Shown: positions 31,706 through 40,430, numbered from the stretch's first letter. The stretch: 64,000 bases of DNA from an uncultured Candidatus Saccharibacteria bacterium (GCA_964350935.1 CAYGLL010000003.1:1487-65486); one strand, 5' to 3'. Numbers and translations: made by a program. The notes: generated from the letters alone by a model not told the origin.

Positions 31706-32286
31706 CTATTTTCTGTTGTAGTATTCTTCCAACGTGCTAAACGAGATTCCTCGTTCGGGATATTCCACGACCCACTCTCGGGCGTCACTCGTACCTGCAG
31801 GACGAACATGAAGGGCATCTCCCATCGACAGAATGATTAGCGAGTCACTCCACTTCACGGAAAACTGAGATGTCCTGTTTGTTCCCCGTGCGGTTGTGAT
31901 GATCTGCGGGTCTCCGTCGAGCTTCGAAACAAATCCTTTTTTCGGAGACTGTATTTGAGAGAGCGTGTGAACACGTACCAGTACCGGTGCGAGTTCGTGT
32001 GATCTCTCAAGAAGCTGATCATCAGGTGATCGGGTGATGCGAATACCGGCCCCTCGTTCAATCTCACAGGCTACCACGTAGTTGTTGAGAATGGGGGGTG
32101 GGTCTTCCGTAGAAAACGGAATCCATGTTTTTTTCTTCCCCGGGCATCCCAGGGAAAACCCGAAATGTGGTCCCGATTGGGAAACAGCAATACCGTCGAT
32201 AAGGCGAAGGCTCCCTACACCCTCAGAACTTCGCAGTTCATGAGGGGTCTCTTCATGTTGGAAGAACACAGTATATGTTCTCATTA
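31706..32286 (-). CDS. hypothetical protein
   Basis: Start chosen at MRTYTVFFQHEE. The track ORF has a 94-aa N-terminal extension that looks unlikely to be real. Confidence 0.3.
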
Positions 32287-32372
32287 GTTTTAACCTTTCT
32301 TTGAAGAGCGTTACTCCATGTAAGAGTACACAAAGATAGTATTTTGTCAAAATTTGATCGCTCAATGTTTGT

Positions 32373-32412
32373 AAATAAAAAAAGGCGCCGTGCACAACCT
32401 GTGCACGGCGCT
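32373..32412 (-). terminator. rho-independent terminator after GC-rich gene
   Basis: ggcgccgtgcacaacctgtgcacggcgcc with a T7 run on the minus strand. Confidence 0.6.
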
Positions 32413-32438
32413 TGAGAAGGCATGAGCCTTCGAGGAAC

Positions 32439-33626
32439 TTATGGCTGTTTGACACCGACAGTCTCAGCGGCCGGAGTGCAACCTTCCGCAACAACCTCGA
32501 GTGTGAGTTTGTCGAGCGCGACCGCAGTCGTGCCCGGCCGACGCGTGTTGCGTTTCGGCGGAGCAACGGACTTGTTTCCGGCAGGCTTTTCGGCCTGCTT
32601 GCGGGCCGGTTGAACGGTGTCAGTCACCGGACTTGCAGTCGCGGTCGTTTCCGCAGGCGCATCTGGCGTGGCGGTAACCGTGATGAGCACGGGGCCCTCG
32701 GCGTGGCCGGCGGGAACAAAGGTCCCCTCCGGCTTACCAGGAACCCAGAGCATTTCACCAGCGACAGGAGCCGTGGGCGGGAGAGCGGCGATCTGCTTTC
32801 TCGACGCTTTCGGAAACTCACGCTTCACGCGCGGGTCAGCGACCTCAACGTAGATGGCATCCTTTCCGGACCCGATGCGCTTCTCGAAGGCGAAGTCCTC
32901 GCCGACGAAGCTCGTGGATCGCTCCAGGAGTTCACCGAGGTGTCCGTAGAACGCCTGCACACGCTTGCGCCCTTTGCCAGTTTCGCTTGTCGGCCCCTCA
33001 AACTGCCAGACGCGGTACACGTCGTTCGTGACTCCCGGAGGGAAACTCCGGGGGTCGGCGCACAGAGAGCGACTGCCGTCCGCGTTGCGACGTTCCCACT
33101 TGGTTTCGGCCGTGAGGACGATTGCTCCCGCACCAGTGGTATGGAACGGAGCCAATGGGTCGCCTTTGGCGAGCCGAGGGTACTCGGCGTTGAAGTCAGC
33201 GAGCGTCCCCTCGAAGTAGGGCTGGTCTGCCTGCGCTGCGCCGTTTGAGGTGCAGTTCACATGTGTCGCGAAGTAGTACGGACGACCCGCGATTTCCTTC
33301 ACCGCGTCGGAGTAGTGAAACCCGACGCCGACGAGGAAGGTTAGGAATCCCCCCTCAGGGCGACGTGAGAGTTCCGGTTGAATGAGCACGACCTGCGTGC
33401 CCTGCTCGAACCTGAAGTCTCCGAGTTCACCGGCGGTTTCGGGGAGTTCCCGTCCGGCAACGATCTTATAGACGTTGCCGAGCGAGAAGTGAACCCCGCG
33501 CTGACCACTTTCATGGTCGGCGACGCTGATGAAGCCGAACTTCTTCTCCCGGTTGACGTAGGTCACGTAACCGACGATGACTTCGACGTTGCCGCGTTTG
33601 GTTTTGAGTACGAGTTTGCTGTTCAT
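32439..33626 (-). CDS. hypothetical protein with N-terminal cold-shock-domain-like fold; strongly GC-rich (foreign-looking)
   Basis: 395 aa with N-terminal GYVTYVNREKKFGFISV resembling a CSD. The DNA is about 60%+ GC against a ~45% background. Confidence 0.45.
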   Translation of the reverse strand: MNSKLVLKTKRGNVEVIVGYVTYVNREKKFGFISVADHESGQRGVHFSLGNVYKIVAGRELPETAGELGDFRFEQGTQVVLIQPELSRRPEGGFLTFLVGVGFHYSDAVKEIAGRPYYFATHVNCTSNGAAQADQPYFEGTLADFNAEYPRLAKGDPLAPFHTTGAGAIVLTAETKWERRNADGSRSLCADPRSFPPGVTNDVYRVWQFEGPTSETGKGRKRVQAFYGHLGELLERSTSFVGEDFAFEKRIGSGKDAIYVEVADPRVKREFPKASRKQIAALPPTAPVAGEMLWVPGKPEGTFVPAGHAEGPVLITVTATPDAPAETTATASPVTDTVQPARKQAEKPAGNKSVAPPKRNTRRPGTTAVALDKLTLEVVAEGCTPAAETVGVKQP

Positions 33627-33774
33627 TTCGATGTGCCTTTCAGTGCTAGTTTTCTCTGAGGTGGCGATAGCCTTATCCAGGTAGAGTTACCCGAGACCTT
33701 AGTGAAAACGTATCTGGTGCAATCTTATCATAAATAAACCATATTGTCAATAGTCGTAGGATGGAGTTTTCGGC

Positions 33775-33807
33775 ATACAAAAACCCCTCAAAATGGGGGT
33801 TTTTTGG
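33775..33807 (-). terminator. bidirectional rho-independent terminator
   Basis: aaaaacccctcaaaatgggggtttttt. Confidence 0.55.
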
Positions 33808-33826
33808 CTCTATTTTGATATTGATA

Positions 33827-34372
33827 TTAGCCGCGCTGAGCTCGTTGTCGTTGACTACCGCGCACCTGCCCCATCAGGTATTTACGCTGATTTTCGTCGA
33901 GATCGATAAAGTCGTCTGCAGCCTCAATAAGCTTTGCTGACGTCGATTTTCCAAATGAAACAACCTCAACCTGGCATCCTTCGTTTGTTTTCAAATACTC
34001 AACCAAAGGCACGAAATCGCCATCTCCTGAAAGAAGAATGACAGCATCAAGCTTGGGCGCAAGTTTAACGGCATCAATCGCAAGTCCCACATCCCAGTCA
34101 GCTTTTTTTGCTCCGCTTCCGAAAATTTGAAGATCTTTAACCTTTGTTTCGATACCCATTTTACCCAGGGCCTCAAAAAATGCCTGTTCTTCGCCGGATT
34201 CTGTTGAAATGACATAGGCGACCGCACGAATGAGTGATCGCTCGGCAACCGCATCTTTGACGATCTGACCGAAATTTACTTTGGTATGATAAAGGTTTTT
34301 GGCGCTATGGTAAAGGTTTTGCGTATCAATGAATACACCAACACGCTGTTCTTTGTGTTTAATAATTGACAT
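33827..34372 (-). CDS. NYN-domain (LabA-like) protein
   Basis: VGVFIDTQNLYHSAK...ILLSGDGDFVPLVEYLK. Confidence 0.7.
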   Translation of the reverse strand: MSIIKHKEQRVGVFIDTQNLYHSAKNLYHTKVNFGQIVKDAVAERSLIRAVAYVISTESGEEQAFFEALGKMGIETKVKDLQIFGSGAKKADWDVGLAIDAVKLAPKLDAVILLSGDGDFVPLVEYLKTNEGCQVEVVSFGKSTSAKLIEAADDFIDLDENQRKYLMGQVRGSQRQRAQRG

Positions 34373-35934: not shown

Positions 35935-35943
35935 TTATCCACA
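35935..35943 (+). promoter_or_regulatory. perfect DnaA box TTATCCACA flanked by AAAGGACA/TGTCCTTT repeats
   Basis: An exact match to the consensus 9-mer. Four AAAGGACA or TGTCCTTT copies lie within 35922-35985, including the 10-bp inverted repeat atgtccttta...taaaggacat. Confidence 0.4.
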
Positions 35944-37757: not shown

Positions 37758-37796
37758 TTTTCTCAATTCACACAATCTAATGTATGATGATTTTAT

Positions 37797-37869
37797 GCGT
37801 TCGTAGCTCAATGGATAGAGCACTTGCCTTCGAAGCAAGGGGTTGCAGGTTCGAGTCCTGCCGAGCGCG
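37797..37869 (+). tRNA. tRNA-Arg (anticodon TCG), no encoded CCA
   Basis: Hand-folded cloverleaf: acceptor GCGTTCG/CGAGCGC, anticodon loop CTTCGAA and T-loop TTCGAGT. Confidence 0.7.
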
Positions 37870-38080
37870 CAGCGATCGAGCAAGGCGATTTATCGCCTTG
37901 CGAGCAGGACTCGAAAAGGCTGAGTATATTTCTGGAAAATTCTTATTTTTCTGGAATTCGAAGCCTGTACCGGTCCTGTAGGGACCGGGTCCCAACCACT
38001 GATCTCGTAGAGATCGAGTTTTTCTTGATAGCCTGTAGTTTTTTGCCCAAACGCCTTGTTGTGCTAGAATTTCGAAGTTC

Positions 38081-38151
38081 GCGGGTATGGTTTAGTGGTA
38101 GAACACGTCCTTGCCAAGGATGAGATGGGAGTTCGATTCTCCCTACCCGCA
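38081..38151 (+). tRNA. tRNA-Gly (anticodon GCC), no encoded CCA
   Basis: Acceptor GCGGGTA/TACCCGC, anticodon loop TTGCCAA and T-loop TTCGATT. Confidence 0.7.
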
Positions 38152-38362
38152 CACGAACGAAGTGAGTTGGCGGTAGAGCACGCAACCTTCGTTGCGTGCG
38201 TGGAGAATCGAACGCCGGAGCGTTGCCGAGCCAGCAGGTGAGGCCGCGAGGCGGTGGCTAGGCCGAGGAGTGCGGCGGCACGACGAGAGCCGATGCCGGT
38301 TCTCCTGTCCGCAGGGATTGATCCCTCTCCGCACAAAATAAATTCCAGCTCGCGTCCAGATG

Positions 38363-38391
38363 TTTACAAATCTGTGGATAAATGTGGGGAT
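38363..38391 (+). promoter_or_regulatory. cluster of three DnaA boxes (TGTGGATAA x2 perfect, TGTGGGGAT degenerate) at ~10-bp phasing, followed by AT-rich stretch
   Basis: TGTGGATAA at 38363-38371 and 38383-38391 is the exact reverse complement of TTATCCACA, and an AT-rich stretch follows from 38400 to 38500. Confidence 0.45.
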
Positions 38392-38508
38392 ATGTGGATA
38401 AAGGACAAAGTCTCTTAGTCTTATATATGTCTTATAAATGGCTCTACTGAGCCTTAAGATGTCCAAAATGCTACATATCTAAAAAGTTACACGTGAAACA
38501 CGTTTTAT

Positions 38509-38925
38509 ATGAAAGAGGAGGACATAACATTACAAGTCGGGGTTAAAATTTTGCTTAAAAATAGTAAAGGTGAGTTCTTGGTTCTTCTTAGATCCCGAAT
38601 AAAATACGGAAATTTTGGAGATATGTGGGATATTCCAGGTGGCAGAATAATCCCCGGAACTGACTTAATCGAAAATCTTAGACGGGAAATTAAGGAGGAA
38701 ACAGGTCTAAATTACACGGGAATACCGGTTTTAGTGGCCGCTCAGGATGTTTTGAGACATAAAGACAAGCATGTAGTTCGTTTAACGTATATAGGTGAGT
38801 TAGACGGAGTGCCTGTTTTAGACGACGAAAATACTGAATATAAGTGGCTAACTCTCCCAGAAATGAAGAAAATGAATGATTTAGACCAGTATGTGCGGGA
38901 ACTACTCAAACGCGATTTTATTTAG
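38509..38925 (+). CDS. NUDIX hydrolase
   Basis: Nudix box GGRIIPGTDLIENLRREIKEETGL. Confidence 0.75.
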   Translation: MKEEDITLQVGVKILLKNSKGEFLVLLRSRIKYGNFGDMWDIPGGRIIPGTDLIENLRREIKEETGLNYTGIPVLVAAQDVLRHKDKHVVRLTYIGELDGVPVLDDENTEYKWLTLPEMKKMNDLDQYVRELLKRDFI

Positions 38926-38934
38926 GCTCATCCT

Positions 38935-39330
38935 ATGGAAAAATGGAGTGAAAAGCGACAATTTGGTAATAAGGGTGAGGAAATAGCCACAAAATTCCTT
39001 ATTTCAAACGGTTTTGAGATTAAAGAAAGGAACTTTTTGCGAAAATATGGCGAAATAGACATTGTTGCACGTTCAAAAGACAACGTTTTTCATTTTATTG
39101 AGGTAAAAAGTGTTTCCCGTGAAAGCACTGACGGTGATAAGAAGGATGAATTTAGGCCGGAAGACAATATTACTCCGGAAAAAATACGAAGTTTGTCGCG
39201 AGTTATTCAGGTATATATCGAAGAAAAAAAGCTCGACGACTTTGACTGGGTGTTTTCGATAATAACGGTAAAGATTGATGAGAAAAATAAGGTTGCACGA
39301 GTAAAATTCATCGAAGATATTGTCCTTTAG
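38935..39330 (+). CDS. yraN: YraN/UPF0102-family endonuclease-like protein
   Basis: GNKGEEIATKFLISNGFEIKERNFLRKYGEIDIVA..FIEVK. Confidence 0.65.
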   Translation: MEKWSEKRQFGNKGEEIATKFLISNGFEIKERNFLRKYGEIDIVARSKDNVFHFIEVKSVSRESTDGDKKDEFRPEDNITPEKIRSLSRVIQVYIEEKKLDDFDWVFSIITVKIDEKNKVARVKFIEDIVL

Positions 39331-39373
39331 TGCGTTCTTGATTTCTGTGTTAAACTCAACTTTCGGGTAATTA

Positions 39374-39444
39374 CGGGGCGTAGTGCAACGGTAGCATACT
39401 TGATTTGGGATCAAGCGGTCCGAGTTCAAATCTCGGCGCCCCGA
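39374..39444 (+). tRNA. tRNA-Pro (anticodon TGG), no encoded CCA
   Basis: Acceptor CGGGGCG/CGCCCCG, anticodon loop TTTGGGA and T-loop TTCAAAT. Confidence 0.65.
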
Positions 39445-39665
39445 CACGAACGAAGTGAAGTGACGGCGAGAAAAGCGCCTGCGCGCTTTTCGGCCGAGAT
39501 TTGAAAAGGTTCTCCCATATCGAACGCCGGCTTGTGCGGCGTGAGATGGGAAACCTGTACTGAAGCTGTAAGCTTCAAATCTATTTGTATAATGTTAATA
39601 AACTAGGGGATTTCTTGTGGATTTGATGTTGAAAGATGTTTGTGTTATCAAATATCTACACGACA

Positions 39666-39986
39666 ATGTCAACAACTTTTAAGAAAAATACTGAAGACTT
39701 TGTGTGCGAGAAGTGTGGTTTTTCAGTGGTAGGTGACGGATACACTAACCATTGTCCAAAATGTTTGTGGAGCAAGCACGTCGACGTAAATCCGGGGGAT
39801 AGGGCAGAGGTGTGTAAAGGAATGATGGAACCTCGTGACGTTGTGTTTGAGCGCGGGGGATACGTTCTTGTTCATCGCTGCGTGAAGTGTGGCTATGAAA
39901 AAAGAAATAAGGTTGATGAGCGTGATGATTTTGATAAAGCAATTGAAATTGCAAAAAAGAACTCGCGGAAGTATATGGATATGTAG
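39666..39986 (+). CDS. RNHCP-domain zinc-ribbon protein
   Basis: FVCEKCGF..GYTNHCPKCLWSKH...HRCVKCGYEK. Start taken at MSTTFKKN. Confidence 0.5.
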   Translation: MSTTFKKNTEDFVCEKCGFSVVGDGYTNHCPKCLWSKHVDVNPGDRAEVCKGMMEPRDVVFERGGYVLVHRCVKCGYEKRNKVDERDDFDKAIEIAKKNSRKYMDM

Positions 39987-40199
39987 GCCCGCTCCAACTG
40001 TTTTTACAAAACACGCATATCCGTCTACTGACGGATTGCTATGCTTGGCTCGTCAGCCTGCGCAATGTTTTGTAAATGCCAGTTCTCGCTTTGGTGGCTA
40101 GTGGTATACTTCGTATTCTAACTTCGGATACAAATTGCTCTGCGAAGAGCAATTTGTTACGATACAGCGCACTGTGAGGTGTATTTTGAAATAAGAAAT

Positions 40200-40270
40200 G
40201 CGGGACTAGTTTAATGGTAGAATAGAAGTTTTCCAAACTTTTGGTGGGAGTTCGATTCTCCCGTCCCGCA
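40200..40270 (+). tRNA. tRNA-Gly (anticodon TCC), no encoded CCA
   Basis: Acceptor GCGGGAC/GTCCCGC, anticodon loop TTTCCAA and T-loop TTCGATT. Confidence 0.65.
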
Positions 40271-40430
40271 CAGCAATGAGCGCAGCGAATATGCTGTGCG
40301 AGGACAGCAAGCACCTACGTGCTTGCGTGGGAGAATCGAAAAGCTTCTCCCATATTTTCGAGTCATTCTTATGCTGAGAAAATGGGAAAGCTGCACTGCT
40401 CCTGTAGGGAGCGATTTCGTCCCGCACAGA

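What the first reader, a model, noticed from the sequence alone, without database searches (positions are those of the whole stretch)
37870..40430. tRNA cluster with a conserved 14-nt motif and GC-rich structured trailers immediately 3' of the tRNAs
tRNA-Gly(GCC) and tRNA-Pro(TGG) are each followed at +1 by CACGAACGAAGTGA. After this come 110-190 nt of GC-rich sequence, unusual for this genome, that folds into several perfect hairpins. Examples are GCACGCAAC-CTTC-GTTGCGTGC, GAAAAGCGC-CTGC-GCGCTTTTC and TGAAGCT-GTA-AGCTTCA.

The trailers of tRNA-Arg and tRNA-Gly(TCC) share other sub-motifs: TCCTGTAGGGA, GAGAATCGAA and TTCTCCCATA. None of the tRNAs encodes CCA, and the CCA-adding enzyme gene sits directly next to tRNA-Arg.

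These trailers could be processing signals, small RNAs co-transcribed with the tRNAs, or footprints of integrative elements that used the tRNA 3' ends as attachment sites.
Basis: seen in the sequence. Interest (0 to 1): 0.55.

Follow-up and report, generated by a model that had tools for sequence, protein, structure and literature searches.

The report
Small tRNA-matching elements behind tRNA genes
Each of the four tRNA genes is followed by a small structured non-coding element that carries an antisense copy and a second direct copy of its own tRNA's 3' end; the same elements lie behind about 30 kinds of tRNA in Patescibacteria (CPR) genomes and environmental contigs, behave like mobile DNA, and match nothing found in Rfam or the searched literature.

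Summary
The four trailers are not loose hairpins. They are four copies of one modular architecture: tRNA, a linker, an antisense copy of the tRNA's acceptor 3' strand, a hairpin (H1), an antisense copy of the T-loop plus 3' T-stem (12/12 nt in all four), a structured core, and a second direct copy of the tRNA 3' end.

Three cores (Arg, Pro, Gly-TCC) fit a covariance model of a three-way-junction RNA built only from metagenomic sequences (E about 1e-7). The Gly-GCC core fits a second family (E 3e-7).

In metagenome contigs the three-way-junction family follows about 30 tRNA species, always on the tRNA's strand, and its antisense segment matches whichever tRNA lies upstream. Helices covary strongly.

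Several features point to a mobile, tRNA-gene-specific, non-coding insertion element:
- patchy occupancy at orthologous sites;
- tandem and nested copies;
- 94-98% identical cores behind different tRNAs.

Its antisense segment pairs with the duplicated target. The catalyst is unknown, and so is whether the active form is RNA or single-stranded DNA. Rfam 15 and six literature searches found no counterpart. The adjacent CCA-adding enzyme gene is ordinary synteny.

The parts
37797..37869 (+). tRNA-Arg(TCG), intact, no CCA; promoter-like site at 37760-37788
37871..37880 (+). Arg element: short linker, possibly a degenerate antisense of the acceptor 3' strand (GCGATCG against the ideal GCGCGCTCG)
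   Evidence: sequence reading; weak
37881..37900 (+). Arg element: hairpin H1 (CAAGGCGA-UUUA-UCGCCUUG)
37904..37915 (+). Arg element: IR-T, GCAGGACTCGAA, the exact reverse complement of the tRNA-Arg T-loop plus 3' T-stem
37916..37987 (+). Arg element: class-2 core. P2 is GGCU/AGCC, P3 hairpin 37929-37959, junction GUAC 37967-37970, P4 hairpin 37971-37987 with a UGUAG loop
   Evidence: covariance model R1 match 37904-37998, E 4.9e-7
37988..37993 (+). Arg element: short remnant (GGTCCC) able to pair with IR-T; the second tRNA 3' copy is nearly gone
   Evidence: alignment
38000..38024 (+). Terminator-like hairpin plus T-run after the Arg element, so the tRNA and element may form one transcription unit
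38081..38151 (+). tRNA-Gly(GCC), intact, no CCA; promoter-like site at 38043-38070
38152..38165 (+). Gly-GCC element: left-end linker motif CACGAACGAAGTGA (recurrent GAACGAAGTGA type)
38169..38176 (+). Gly-GCC element: IR-acc GGCGGTAG, antisense of the acceptor 3' strand with one deletion
   Evidence: (MFE closes it onto 38327-38334)
38178..38199 (+). Gly-GCC element: hairpin H1 (GCACGCAAC-CUUC-GUUGCGUGC)
38202..38213 (+). Gly-GCC element: IR-T GGAGAATCGAAC, the exact reverse complement of tRNA positions 53-64
38214..38305 (+). Gly-GCC element: class-1 core (GCCGGAGCG ... CGCGAGGCGGTGGC ...), closed by TTCTCC at 38300-38305, a copy of the T-loop/T-stem 3' side
   Evidence: class-1 profile hit 38202-38305, E 3.4e-7, the only hit in the window
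38313..38335 (+). Gly-GCC element: extra small hairpin 38313-38326, then a second copy of the tRNA end, CTCCGCACA (CCGCACA identical)
39374..39444 (+). tRNA-Pro(TGG), intact, no CCA
39445..39458 (+). Pro element: the same left-end linker motif, CACGAACGAAGTGA
39464..39496 (+). Pro element: hairpin H1 (GAAAAGCGC-CUGC-GCGCUUUUC), extended by CGGC/GCCG
39494..39505 (+). Pro element: IR-T CCGAGATTTGAA, the exact reverse complement of the tRNA-Pro T-loop plus 3' T-stem
39508..39577 (+). Pro element: class-2 core. P2 is GGUUCUCCCAU/AUGGGAAACC, P3 39520-39545, junction UGUAC, P4 39561-39577 with a UGUAA loop
   Evidence: R1 match 39494-39588, E 2.4e-7
39574..39582 (+). Pro element: TTCAAATCT, a second copy of the T-loop segment (9/9) that can pair with IR-T
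40200..40270 (+). tRNA-Gly(TCC), intact, no CCA
40272..40305 (+). Gly-TCC element: linker hairpin, then IR-acc GTGCGAGGAC (40296-40305), the antisense of GTCCCGCAC with one extra A
40308..40325 (+). Gly-TCC element: hairpin H1 (CAAGCAC-CUAC-GUGCUUG)
40329..40340 (+). Gly-TCC element: IR-T GGGAGAATCGAA, the exact reverse complement of the T-loop plus 3' T-stem
40343..40412 (+). Gly-TCC element: class-2 core. P2 is GCUUCUCCCAU/UGGGAAAGC, P3 40355-40382, junction UGCAC, P4 40398-40412 with a UGUAG loop
   Evidence: R1 match 40329-40424, E 7.7e-7
40413..40428 (+). Gly-TCC element: second copy of the tRNA 3' end, GATTTCGTCCCGCACA (last 10 nt identical to 40263-40272). It pairs with IR-T and IR-acc to close the fold
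   Evidence: MFE shows the closure

Best explanation
The four trailers are four members of an apparently uncatalogued group of small (about 110-190 nt) non-coding insertion elements that live specifically at the 3' flank of tRNA genes in Patescibacteria.

A unit reads, on the tRNA's strand:
- a linker (either a GAACGAAGUGA-type end or a terminator-like palindrome);
- a two-part antisense copy (X') of tRNA positions about 54-74, split by a 22-29-nt hairpin (H1) exactly at the acceptor/T-stem boundary;
- one of several structured cores (class 2, a three-way junction with a UGUAR pentaloop hairpin, in Arg, Pro and Gly-TCC; class 1 in Gly-GCC);
- a second direct copy (#2) of the tRNA's T-loop-to-3'-end segment.

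Shown here: the architecture, its statistical link to the upstream tRNA, the strand, the helices and the patchy distribution.

Inferred: the unit is, or recently was, mobile. It recognises its target by base pairing between X' and the tRNA 3' segment while single-stranded (ssDNA or RNA). It inserts just after the tRNA's 3' end, and its own right end reproduces the target. The tRNA therefore stays intact, and the site is regenerated for further tandem insertions. In the integrated copy X' pairs with #2, closing the core in a tRNA-minihelix-like stem and keeping the spare 3' end from interfering with tRNA folding.

The enzyme must act in trans. It is not identified.
For: Architecture in the window:
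- 12/12 antisense segments in all four trailers.
- The closing helix appears in the MFE folds of the Gly-TCC and Gly-GCC elements.

Association with tRNAs in related genomes:
- 44 of 181 tRNAs in 80 related loci plus the window carry the antisense 12-mer (2 or fewer mismatches) downstream. None of 180 upstream controls does.

Metagenome scan for the class-2 core:
- 86 of 122 matches lie less than 250 nt downstream of a same-strand tRNA, covering about 30 tRNA species.
- The 7 antisense bases not fixed by the search pattern match the element's own tRNA exactly in 36 cases and with one mismatch in 24. Against other tRNA species, 0.4% match exactly.
- The acceptor antisense 9-mer is exact in 25 of 82 and within 2 mismatches in 52 of 82; the control gives about 10% within 2. 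The gap to IR-T is 22-29 nt and folds as a hairpin in 49 of 52.

Structure:
- 87.5% of cells pair, against 72.6% in shuffles (0/500 reach it).
- P2 is 98.9% paired and P4 98.2%, with many double changes. Slid controls reach at most 52%.
- In P2, G.U outnumbers A.C 23 to 3, which places the fold on the tRNA-sense strand.

Membership of the window copies:
- Model R1, built without any window sequence, finds exactly the Arg, Pro and Gly-TCC trailers at E 2e-7 to 8e-7. The next hit has E 0.2.
- A class-1 profile hits the window only at 38202-38305, E 3.4e-7.
- 33 of 35 full-length class-1 hits follow the same tRNA and antisense rule.

Signs of mobility:
- Orthologous tRNAs are mostly empty, and the occupied ones carry different classes. 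For Gly-GCC: 40 none, 10 class 1, 6 class 2, 4 class 3.
- Cores 94-98% identical sit behind His vs Ser, Leu vs Arg and Ser vs Gly tRNAs from different metagenomes, while their flanks match the local tRNA.
- Tandem arrays, including mixed classes, and a class-2-like module nested inside another element in L010.
- Partial deletions in L028 and L073.
- No open reading frame fits inside, and no recombinase gene tracks the elements.
Against: - No transposase, integrase or reverse transcriptase was linked to the elements, so mobility is inferred from distribution only.
- No precise empty-versus-filled pair of near-identical genomes was available. Only identical contigs were found.
- The antisense segment and hairpin H1 differ between elements with near-identical cores. 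The core may therefore move or recombine separately from the flanks, and a simple 'whole unit with a fixed guide' model does not explain how X' and #2 come to match each new tRNA.
- Strand asymmetry rests mainly on one wobble column in P2. P1 and P3 show none.
- The tRNA-like topology, with H1 exactly where the D and anticodon arms leave a tRNA, hints at an RNA-level function. A purely selfish DNA model does not need that.
- Some orthologous elements persist across species (L019, L028, L061).
Confidence: 0.55

Rival explanations
1. Host-used, co-transcribed tRNA-like RNAs. X' (with H1) pairs with #2 to form an acceptor-like and T-like helix stack. RNase P, RNase Z and the CCA-adding enzyme then cut the unit out of the tRNA precursor as a stable small RNA. 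Its core (class 1, 2 or 3) carries the real, still unknown, function. The tRNA-matching stems would be a natural 'tRNA scaffold'.
For: - Always on the tRNA's strand and directly downstream.
- Strong covariation and invariant unpaired bases.
- H1 sits exactly at the acceptor/T-stem junction with a tight length range.
- In the window the linkers lack terminators, and a terminator-like site follows the Arg element.
- Some elements are retained across related species.
Against: - At least 31 of 86 elements have a terminator-like hairpin plus T-run between the tRNA and X', and no room for a promoter.
- Most orthologous tRNAs have no element, and occupied sites carry different core classes.
- Tandem, nested and truncated copies exist.
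- There is no T-loop, and the Rfam tRNA model scores nothing in the trailers even at E up to 10.
- X' contains the complement of the T-loop, which a tRNA-like paralogue would not.
Confidence: 0.25
2. Decayed scars (att-site remnants) of ordinary integrase-carrying prophages or integrative elements that once sat in these tRNA genes.
For: Direct repeats of the tRNA segment from the T-loop to the 3' end flank the inserts, as at classical tRNA attachment sites (own knowledge: Campbell-type integration; Williams 2002).
Against: - The same about 95-nt fold recurs with covariation in more than 120 contigs.
- Each copy has an antisense segment.
- No integrase is inside or associated. The nearby Xer-like gene is syntenic regardless of elements.
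- The two patterns scanned had no genuine match in IMG/VR viral contigs.
Confidence: 0.07
3. Introns or insertions in the T-loop of the tRNA gene. The downstream copy #2 would be the true 3' exon, and everything between would be removed by splicing.
For: - #2 begins within the T-loop.
- About 20 class-2 copies have a good #2 but no recognisable tRNA upstream.
- Archaeal tRNA introns occur at T-loop positions and are mobile (own knowledge).
Against: - In the window, and in 86 metagenomic cases, the upstream tRNA is complete and scores normally, so no splicing is needed.
- #2 is often degenerate while the first copy is perfect.
- The Rfam group I and II intron models do not match.
Confidence: 0.04
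4. Ordinary 3' processing or termination signals, with chance similarity between trailers.
For: Hairpin-rich sequence directly after tRNAs. One terminator-like site lies at 38000-38024.
Against: Statistics of the antisense rule, family-level matches and absence from most orthologous tRNAs.
Confidence: 0.02

Closest known systems
Integrative elements that use tRNA genes as attachment sites (Campbell-type, tyrosine integrases; own knowledge)
   Same: The insert sits at a tRNA gene. The tRNA stays intact. A direct repeat of the T-loop-to-3'-end segment marks the far end. The regenerated site allows tandem copies.
   Different: The units are 110-190 nt with no integrase and no coding capacity. Each contains an antisense copy of the site and a conserved covarying core. 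The two patterns scanned had no genuine match in viral contigs.
Folded single-stranded attachment sites: CTX phage attP(+) hairpin used by XerCD, and integron attC sites (own knowledge)
   Same: An inverted and a direct copy of the target are separated by a spacer of about 60-120 nt. Together they can fold on one specific strand into a duplex that mimics the chromosomal target. The structure is conserved more than the sequence, and function is strand-specific.
   Different: Here the target is a tRNA 3' end, not dif or attI. The mimic differs for every tRNA. The spacer is itself a conserved three-way junction. No recombinase is implicated, and the local Xer gene shows no association.
IS200/IS605-family elements and their non-coding derivatives (PATEs, REPINs), which choose targets by DNA-DNA base pairing with an internal guide (own knowledge)
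   Same: Non-coding, hairpin-rich and strand- and orientation-specific. Insertion is just 3' of a recognised sequence. The right end resembles the target. Pairing with an internal segment could read both the target and the right end.
   Different: The known guides are 4-5 nt and the same in every copy. Here the complementary stretch is about 21 nt, split by a hairpin, and differs at each tRNA. No TnpA or RAYT gene was sought or found.
Guide pairing in retroelements: group II intron EBS/IBS and the retroviral primer-binding site (own knowledge)
   Same: An internal segment is complementary to the flanking target (EBS/IBS) or to the 3' 18 nt of a tRNA (PBS). The Watson-Crick complement of the tRNA 3' strand is kept even where the tRNA's own stem has a G.U pair.
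   Different: No intron ribozyme domains were found (Rfam negative) and no reverse transcriptase. H1 interrupts the complementary stretch. The second copies show no CCA signature.
tRNA-like processing elements: plant mitochondrial t-elements, MALAT1 mascRNA, herpesvirus tRNA-miRNA units (own knowledge; papers listed)
   Same: Acceptor-like and T-like helices lie next to or within a longer transcript and could recruit RNase P and RNase Z.
   Different: No T-loop. The helix is built from an antisense copy of the neighbouring tRNA. The distribution is patchy and mobile-like.
Mobile tRNA introns of Thermoproteales archaea, and the rRNA insertions of CPR bacteria (own knowledge)
   Same: Small non-coding inserts that spread among RNA genes, including T-loop positions. 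CPR genomes are already known for insertions in rRNA genes.
   Different: The tRNA here is not interrupted. No bulge-helix-bulge motif or splicing endonuclease was shown. These inserts lie after the gene.

Membership tests
Class-2 tRNA-flank element (three-way junction with UGUAR hairpin; defined here) | Full-length match to covariance model R1, built from 44 metagenomic copies | tested here: met
   Arg 37904-37998 E 4.9e-7; Pro 39494-39588 E 2.4e-7; Gly-TCC 40329-40424 E 7.7e-7; next hit E 0.2. The Gly-GCC trailer does not match.
Class-2 tRNA-flank element | Lies less than 250 nt downstream of a tRNA on the same strand, with a 12-nt antisense of that tRNA's T-loop plus 3' T-stem | tested here: met
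   12/12 in all three. The rule holds in 86 metagenomic copies.
Class-2 tRNA-flank element | A second direct copy of the tRNA 3' end follows hairpin P4 | tested here: inconclusive
   Gly-TCC has 10 nt exact plus degenerate T-loop bases. Pro has 9 nt of the T-loop only. Arg has only about 4-6 nt left.
Class-1 tRNA-flank element (CGGAGC ... GCGAGGCGG ... core) | Match to a sequence profile of 13 copies from other genomes, with the same tRNA and antisense context | tested here: met
   Single window hit at 38202-38305, E 3.4e-7. IR-T is exact as GGAGAATCGAAC and scores 11/12 in the register used.
Any Rfam 15 family (tRNA-like, riboswitch, ribozyme, intron, sRNA) | Covariance-model match at or near the gathering score | tested here: not met
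   Only the four tRNAs score. Nothing meaningful hits the trailers even at E up to 10. Loci with class 1, 2 and 3 also give nothing.
Integrase-mediated integrative element / prophage at a tRNA att site | Direct repeats of the tRNA 3' segment at both ends | tested here: met
Integrase-mediated integrative element / prophage at a tRNA att site | An integrase gene and cargo lie between the repeats | tested here: not met
   The inserts are 137-183 nt. The only ORFs there are spurious ones overlapping the tRNAs. The Xer-like gene 2 kb away is syntenic in 61/81 loci regardless of elements.
MITE / IS-derived miniature element | Element-specific terminal inverted repeats and a fixed-length target-site duplication | tested here: not met
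   The inverted and direct repeats are copies of the local tRNA, differ at each site and vary in length.
Group I / group II intron or archaeal-type tRNA intron | Interrupts the gene; ribozyme domains or a bulge-helix-bulge motif are present | tested here: not met
   The tRNAs are complete. No intron model matches in the region. The bulge-helix-bulge motif was not specifically tested.
tRNA-like structure / t-element | Acceptor stem plus T-arm with a T-loop, recognisable as tRNA-like | tested here: inconclusive
   Acceptor-like and T-stem-like helices form between X' and #2. The T-loop is replaced by the core, and the tRNA model does not score. Enzyme recognition is not testable here.
IS200/IS605-type guide-directed ssDNA element (PATE/REPIN-like) | Mobilised by a Y1 HUH transposase that reads subterminal hairpins | not testable with these tools
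   Whole genomes of the hosts were not available for phylogenetic profiling.

The most novel reading that the evidence does not exclude
These are a new kind of guide-directed mobile element. A protein-less unit of about 150 nt specifies its own insertion site through a bipartite antisense guide of about 21 nt against the T-loop-to-3'-end of a tRNA gene. It folds, as RNA or ssDNA, into a tRNA-minihelix-like mimic of that target, and an unidentified host or helper enzyme inserts it so that the target is regenerated. The guide can be re-set to any tRNA; about 30 species were seen.
Probability: 0.2. Interest if true: 0.95.

Novelty: categorically new. Interest (0 to 1): 0.8.

Why it matters
- It would add at least two, probably three, well-supported structured non-coding families to a phylum (Patescibacteria/CPR) whose RNA biology is almost unexplored. 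It would also explain much 'GC-rich junk' after CPR tRNA genes.
- The rule that each element carries the Watson-Crick antisense of whichever tRNA it follows is a rare natural case of locus-matched complementarity. That complementarity is either a programmable targeting principle or a built-in device for neutralising a duplicated tRNA end. The second bears on how small genomes tolerate insertions at essential genes.
- For annotation: these units should not be called tRNA pseudogenes, terminators or prophage scars.

Tried and rejected
- Rfam searches of the window (gathering and E up to 10) and of 13 related loci found nothing but tRNAs and one unrelated group I intron.
- Six literature searches found nothing relevant.
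- Reading by eye for C/D-box, H/ACA, hammerhead, twister, pistol or hatchet cores showed that the conserved bases do not fit any of them.
- A gene on the minus strand is unlikely. P2 has 23 G.U against 3 A.C in plus sense, and the Arg element lies between two + strand tRNAs.
- Origin as a degenerate second tRNA copy is rejected. X' includes the complement of the T-loop, and it follows the Watson-Crick complement of the 3' T-stem strand rather than the tRNA's own 5' strand where these differ (L116, L126, L139, L162).
- No retro-origin signature was found. Second copies carry CCA where the gene lacks it in 3 cases, and the reverse holds in 4.
- 'Empty' X'-X hairpins without a core do not occur. 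The gap is always at least 58 nt.
- Phage origin is not supported. Two scans of viral contigs gave one match, which is coding sequence without the fold.
- No link to the CCA-adding enzyme or the Xer-like recombinase appears. Both are syntenic irrespective of elements.
- The search for close relatives of the window organism returned only identical contigs.
- About 20 class-2 copies without a detectable upstream tRNA remain unexplained. Some are second units of tandem arrays.


Full report
**Observation.** ARAGORN and Rfam agree on four intact + strand tRNAs: Arg-TCG, Gly-GCC, Pro-TGG and Gly-TCC. None encodes CCA. The 14-mer CACGAACGAAGTGA occurs exactly twice in 64 kb, each time starting one base after the discriminator of tRNA-Gly(GCC) and tRNA-Pro. 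The quoted hairpins are real. The neighbouring gene is a CCA-adding enzyme by Pfam.

Some details need correcting. GAGAATCGAA is shared by the two Gly trailers, and TTCTCCCATA by the Pro and Gly-TCC trailers; only TCCTGTAGGGA is shared by Arg and Gly-TCC. Only the Gly-GCC trailer is strongly GC-rich, at 0.66. The others are 0.48-0.53 against 0.42 locally.

**What the motifs are.** GAGAATCGAA is the reverse complement of the tRNA-Gly T-loop and T-stem. Every trailer holds, 33-57 nt after the tRNA, a 12-mer that is the exact reverse complement of the T-loop plus 3' T-stem of its own tRNA:
- Arg: GCAGGACTCGAA
- Gly-GCC: GGAGAATCGAAC
- Pro: CCGAGATTTGAA
- Gly-TCC: GGGAGAATCGAA

A GC-rich hairpin (H1) comes before this segment. 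Upstream of H1 lies a more degenerate antisense of the acceptor 3' strand (Gly-TCC GTGCGAGGAC, Gly-GCC GGCGGTAG). A structured core follows the 12-mer. Each trailer then ends with a partial second copy of the tRNA 3' end: Gly-TCC GTCCCGCACA (10/10), Gly-GCC CCGCACA, Pro TTCAAATCT. MFE folds of the Gly-TCC and Gly-GCC elements pair the antisense segments with this second copy, which closes the core.

**Organism and relatives.** A protein-guided scan with the CCA-adding enzyme returned 80 syntenic loci, all from Patescibacteria MAGs of the Parcubacteria/Paceibacteria type, at about 60% identity. In these loci plus the window, 44 of 181 tRNAs carry the antisense 12-mer (2 or fewer mismatches) within 170 nt downstream. 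None of 180 upstream controls does. Reading the trailers shows one architecture with at least three core classes.

At orthologous tRNAs most genomes have no element, and the occupied sites carry different classes. For Gly-GCC the counts are 40 none, 10 class 1, 6 class 2 and 4 class 3. Truncated copies exist in L028 and L073.

**The class-2 family.** Of 122 matches, 86 lie less than 250 nt downstream of a same-strand tRNA, covering about 30 tRNA species.

The antisense rule holds across them:
- The seven antisense bases not fixed by the pattern equal the complement of the element's own tRNA exactly in 36 cases and with one mismatch in 24. Only 0.4% match exactly against other tRNA species.
- The acceptor antisense 9-mer is exact in 25 of 82 and within two mismatches in 52 of 82. 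The control gives about 10% within two.
- The spacer between the two antisense parts is 22-29 nt and folds as a hairpin in 49 of 52.
- The second tRNA copy begins in the T-loop and usually ends one or two bases after the discriminator.

On an alignment of 44 copies, my three-way-junction model has four helices: P1 (antisense with second copy), P2, P3 and P4. It gives 87.5% paired cells against 72.6% in shuffles (0/500 reach it). P2 is 98.9% paired and P4 98.2%, with many double substitutions, and slid controls collapse. In P2, G.U outnumbers A.C 23 to 3, which places the fold on the tRNA-sense strand.

**Membership of the window copies.** A covariance model built only from the metagenomic sequences finds exactly the Arg, Pro and Gly-TCC trailers at E 2e-7 to 8e-7; the next hit has E 0.2. 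It also gives 21 hits in the related loci. A profile of 13 class-1 elements from other genomes hits the window once, on the Gly-GCC trailer (E 3.4e-7). Of 35 full-length class-1 hits, 33 follow the same tRNA and antisense rule.

GAACGAAGTGA lies 2-3 nt after 11 tRNA genes of six amino-acid specificities; nine of these are in other organisms.

**Signs of mobility.**
- Occupancy is patchy, and different classes occupy the same orthologous site.
- Cores 94-98% identical sit behind His vs Ser, Leu vs Arg, Arg vs Leu, Ser vs Leu and Ser vs Gly tRNAs on contigs from different metagenomes. The linker, both antisense parts, H1 and the second copy differ and match the local tRNA.
- Tandem arrays occur, including mixed class-2/class-1 arrays.
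- A class-2-like module is nested inside another element in L010.
- A strict terminator-like hairpin plus T-run lies between the tRNA and the element in 31 of 86 cases, but after the element in only 8. This argues against obligatory co-transcription. In this window, however, the linkers have no terminator and one follows the Arg element.

**Interpretation.** I commit to a mobile, tRNA-gene-specific, non-coding insertion element (confidence 0.55). Its antisense segment pairs with the tRNA 3' segment, and its right end reproduces the target. The tRNA therefore survives, and the site is regenerated. This step is inferred, not shown.

How the antisense and second copy come to match each new tRNA is unresolved. 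So are the catalyst and whether the active form is RNA or ssDNA. The closest working analogies are folded single-strand attachment sites (CTX phage, integron attC), guide-based IS200/IS605 transposition, and EBS/IBS or primer-binding-site pairing. All of these are from my own knowledge, and each fails at least one defining feature (see the membership table).

The main rival (0.25) is a host-used tRNA-like RNA released by RNase P and RNase Z. The exact placement of H1 at the acceptor/T-stem junction favours it.

**Negative results.**
- No Rfam family matches.
- Nothing relevant turned up in six literature searches.
- No genuine viral-contig match was found.
- The Xer-like recombinase and the CCA-adding enzyme gene show no association with the elements.
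- There is no CCA signature of retro-origin.
- No core-less scaffolds exist.
- No informative close relatives of the window organism were found.

**Verdict.** It is an apparently undescribed, widespread class of tRNA-matched structured elements in CPR bacteria. All four tRNAs of this window are occupied, although most orthologous tRNAs in related species are empty.

Noticed in passing
window 38373-38381 and 38393-38401 (also 35935-35943 on the minus strand); same position in many of L001-L080: Two perfect DnaA-box-like 9-mers (TGTGGATAA) lie 20 nt apart just downstream of the Gly-GCC element. A very similar block (ACTGTGGATAACTCTGTGGA..TGT.TATAAAAGACA) follows tRNA-Gly(GCC) in most related genomes. 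It could be a replication origin or a DnaA-controlled promoter.
   Followed up: partly
L041, downstream of tRNA-Gly(GCC) at about 2217-2440: A class-3 element whose two hairpin loops each contain the same extra insert of about 40 nt (GCGACCTAATTTT...AAAATGGAAGTACTC). This suggests a further layer of loop-targeting mini-insertions.
   Followed up: no
L094, L102, L131, L138, L161 (second tRNA copy after class-2 cores): A recurrent 13-nt mini-hairpin (AAGTGTACTCACG, loop UACU) is inserted inside the T-loop part of the second tRNA copy. Its loop resembles the conserved GUACUG junction of the class-2 core.
   Followed up: no
L002, L010, L023, L024, L035, L051, L072, L079: A third core class (GGGTCGGRAA..hairpin..GTGGAGGAAGG..GGGAAAACC..GGTTTCCCAG) has the same tRNA antisense and second-copy flanks. 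It often lacks H1 and contains a purine-rich GGAGGAAGG stretch.
   Followed up: partly
L127, L163, L183, upstream of class-2 units: Class-2 units without a detectable tRNA are preceded by a shared unknown sequence (...CAGTTTCAAGCCACCACGCGCTCCGCGCGTG...). No Rfam hit, tRNA or tmRNA was found there. It may be another, unrecognised RNA gene or a heavily interrupted tRNA.
   Followed up: partly
L173 2018-2267: A group I intron (Rfam RF00028, 73 bits) lies on a contig that also carries a class-2 element.
   Followed up: no
window 32000-34000: A GC-rich block (0.54-0.56, against 0.46 for the window) holds a 395-aa ORF on the minus strand (32439-33626) of unknown function.
   Followed up: no
window 37797-40430, compared with L001-L080: All four tRNAs of this cluster carry an element here. 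In related species each of these tRNAs is empty in most genomes: 33-53 show no element against 6-20 occupied, depending on the tRNA.
   Followed up: yes
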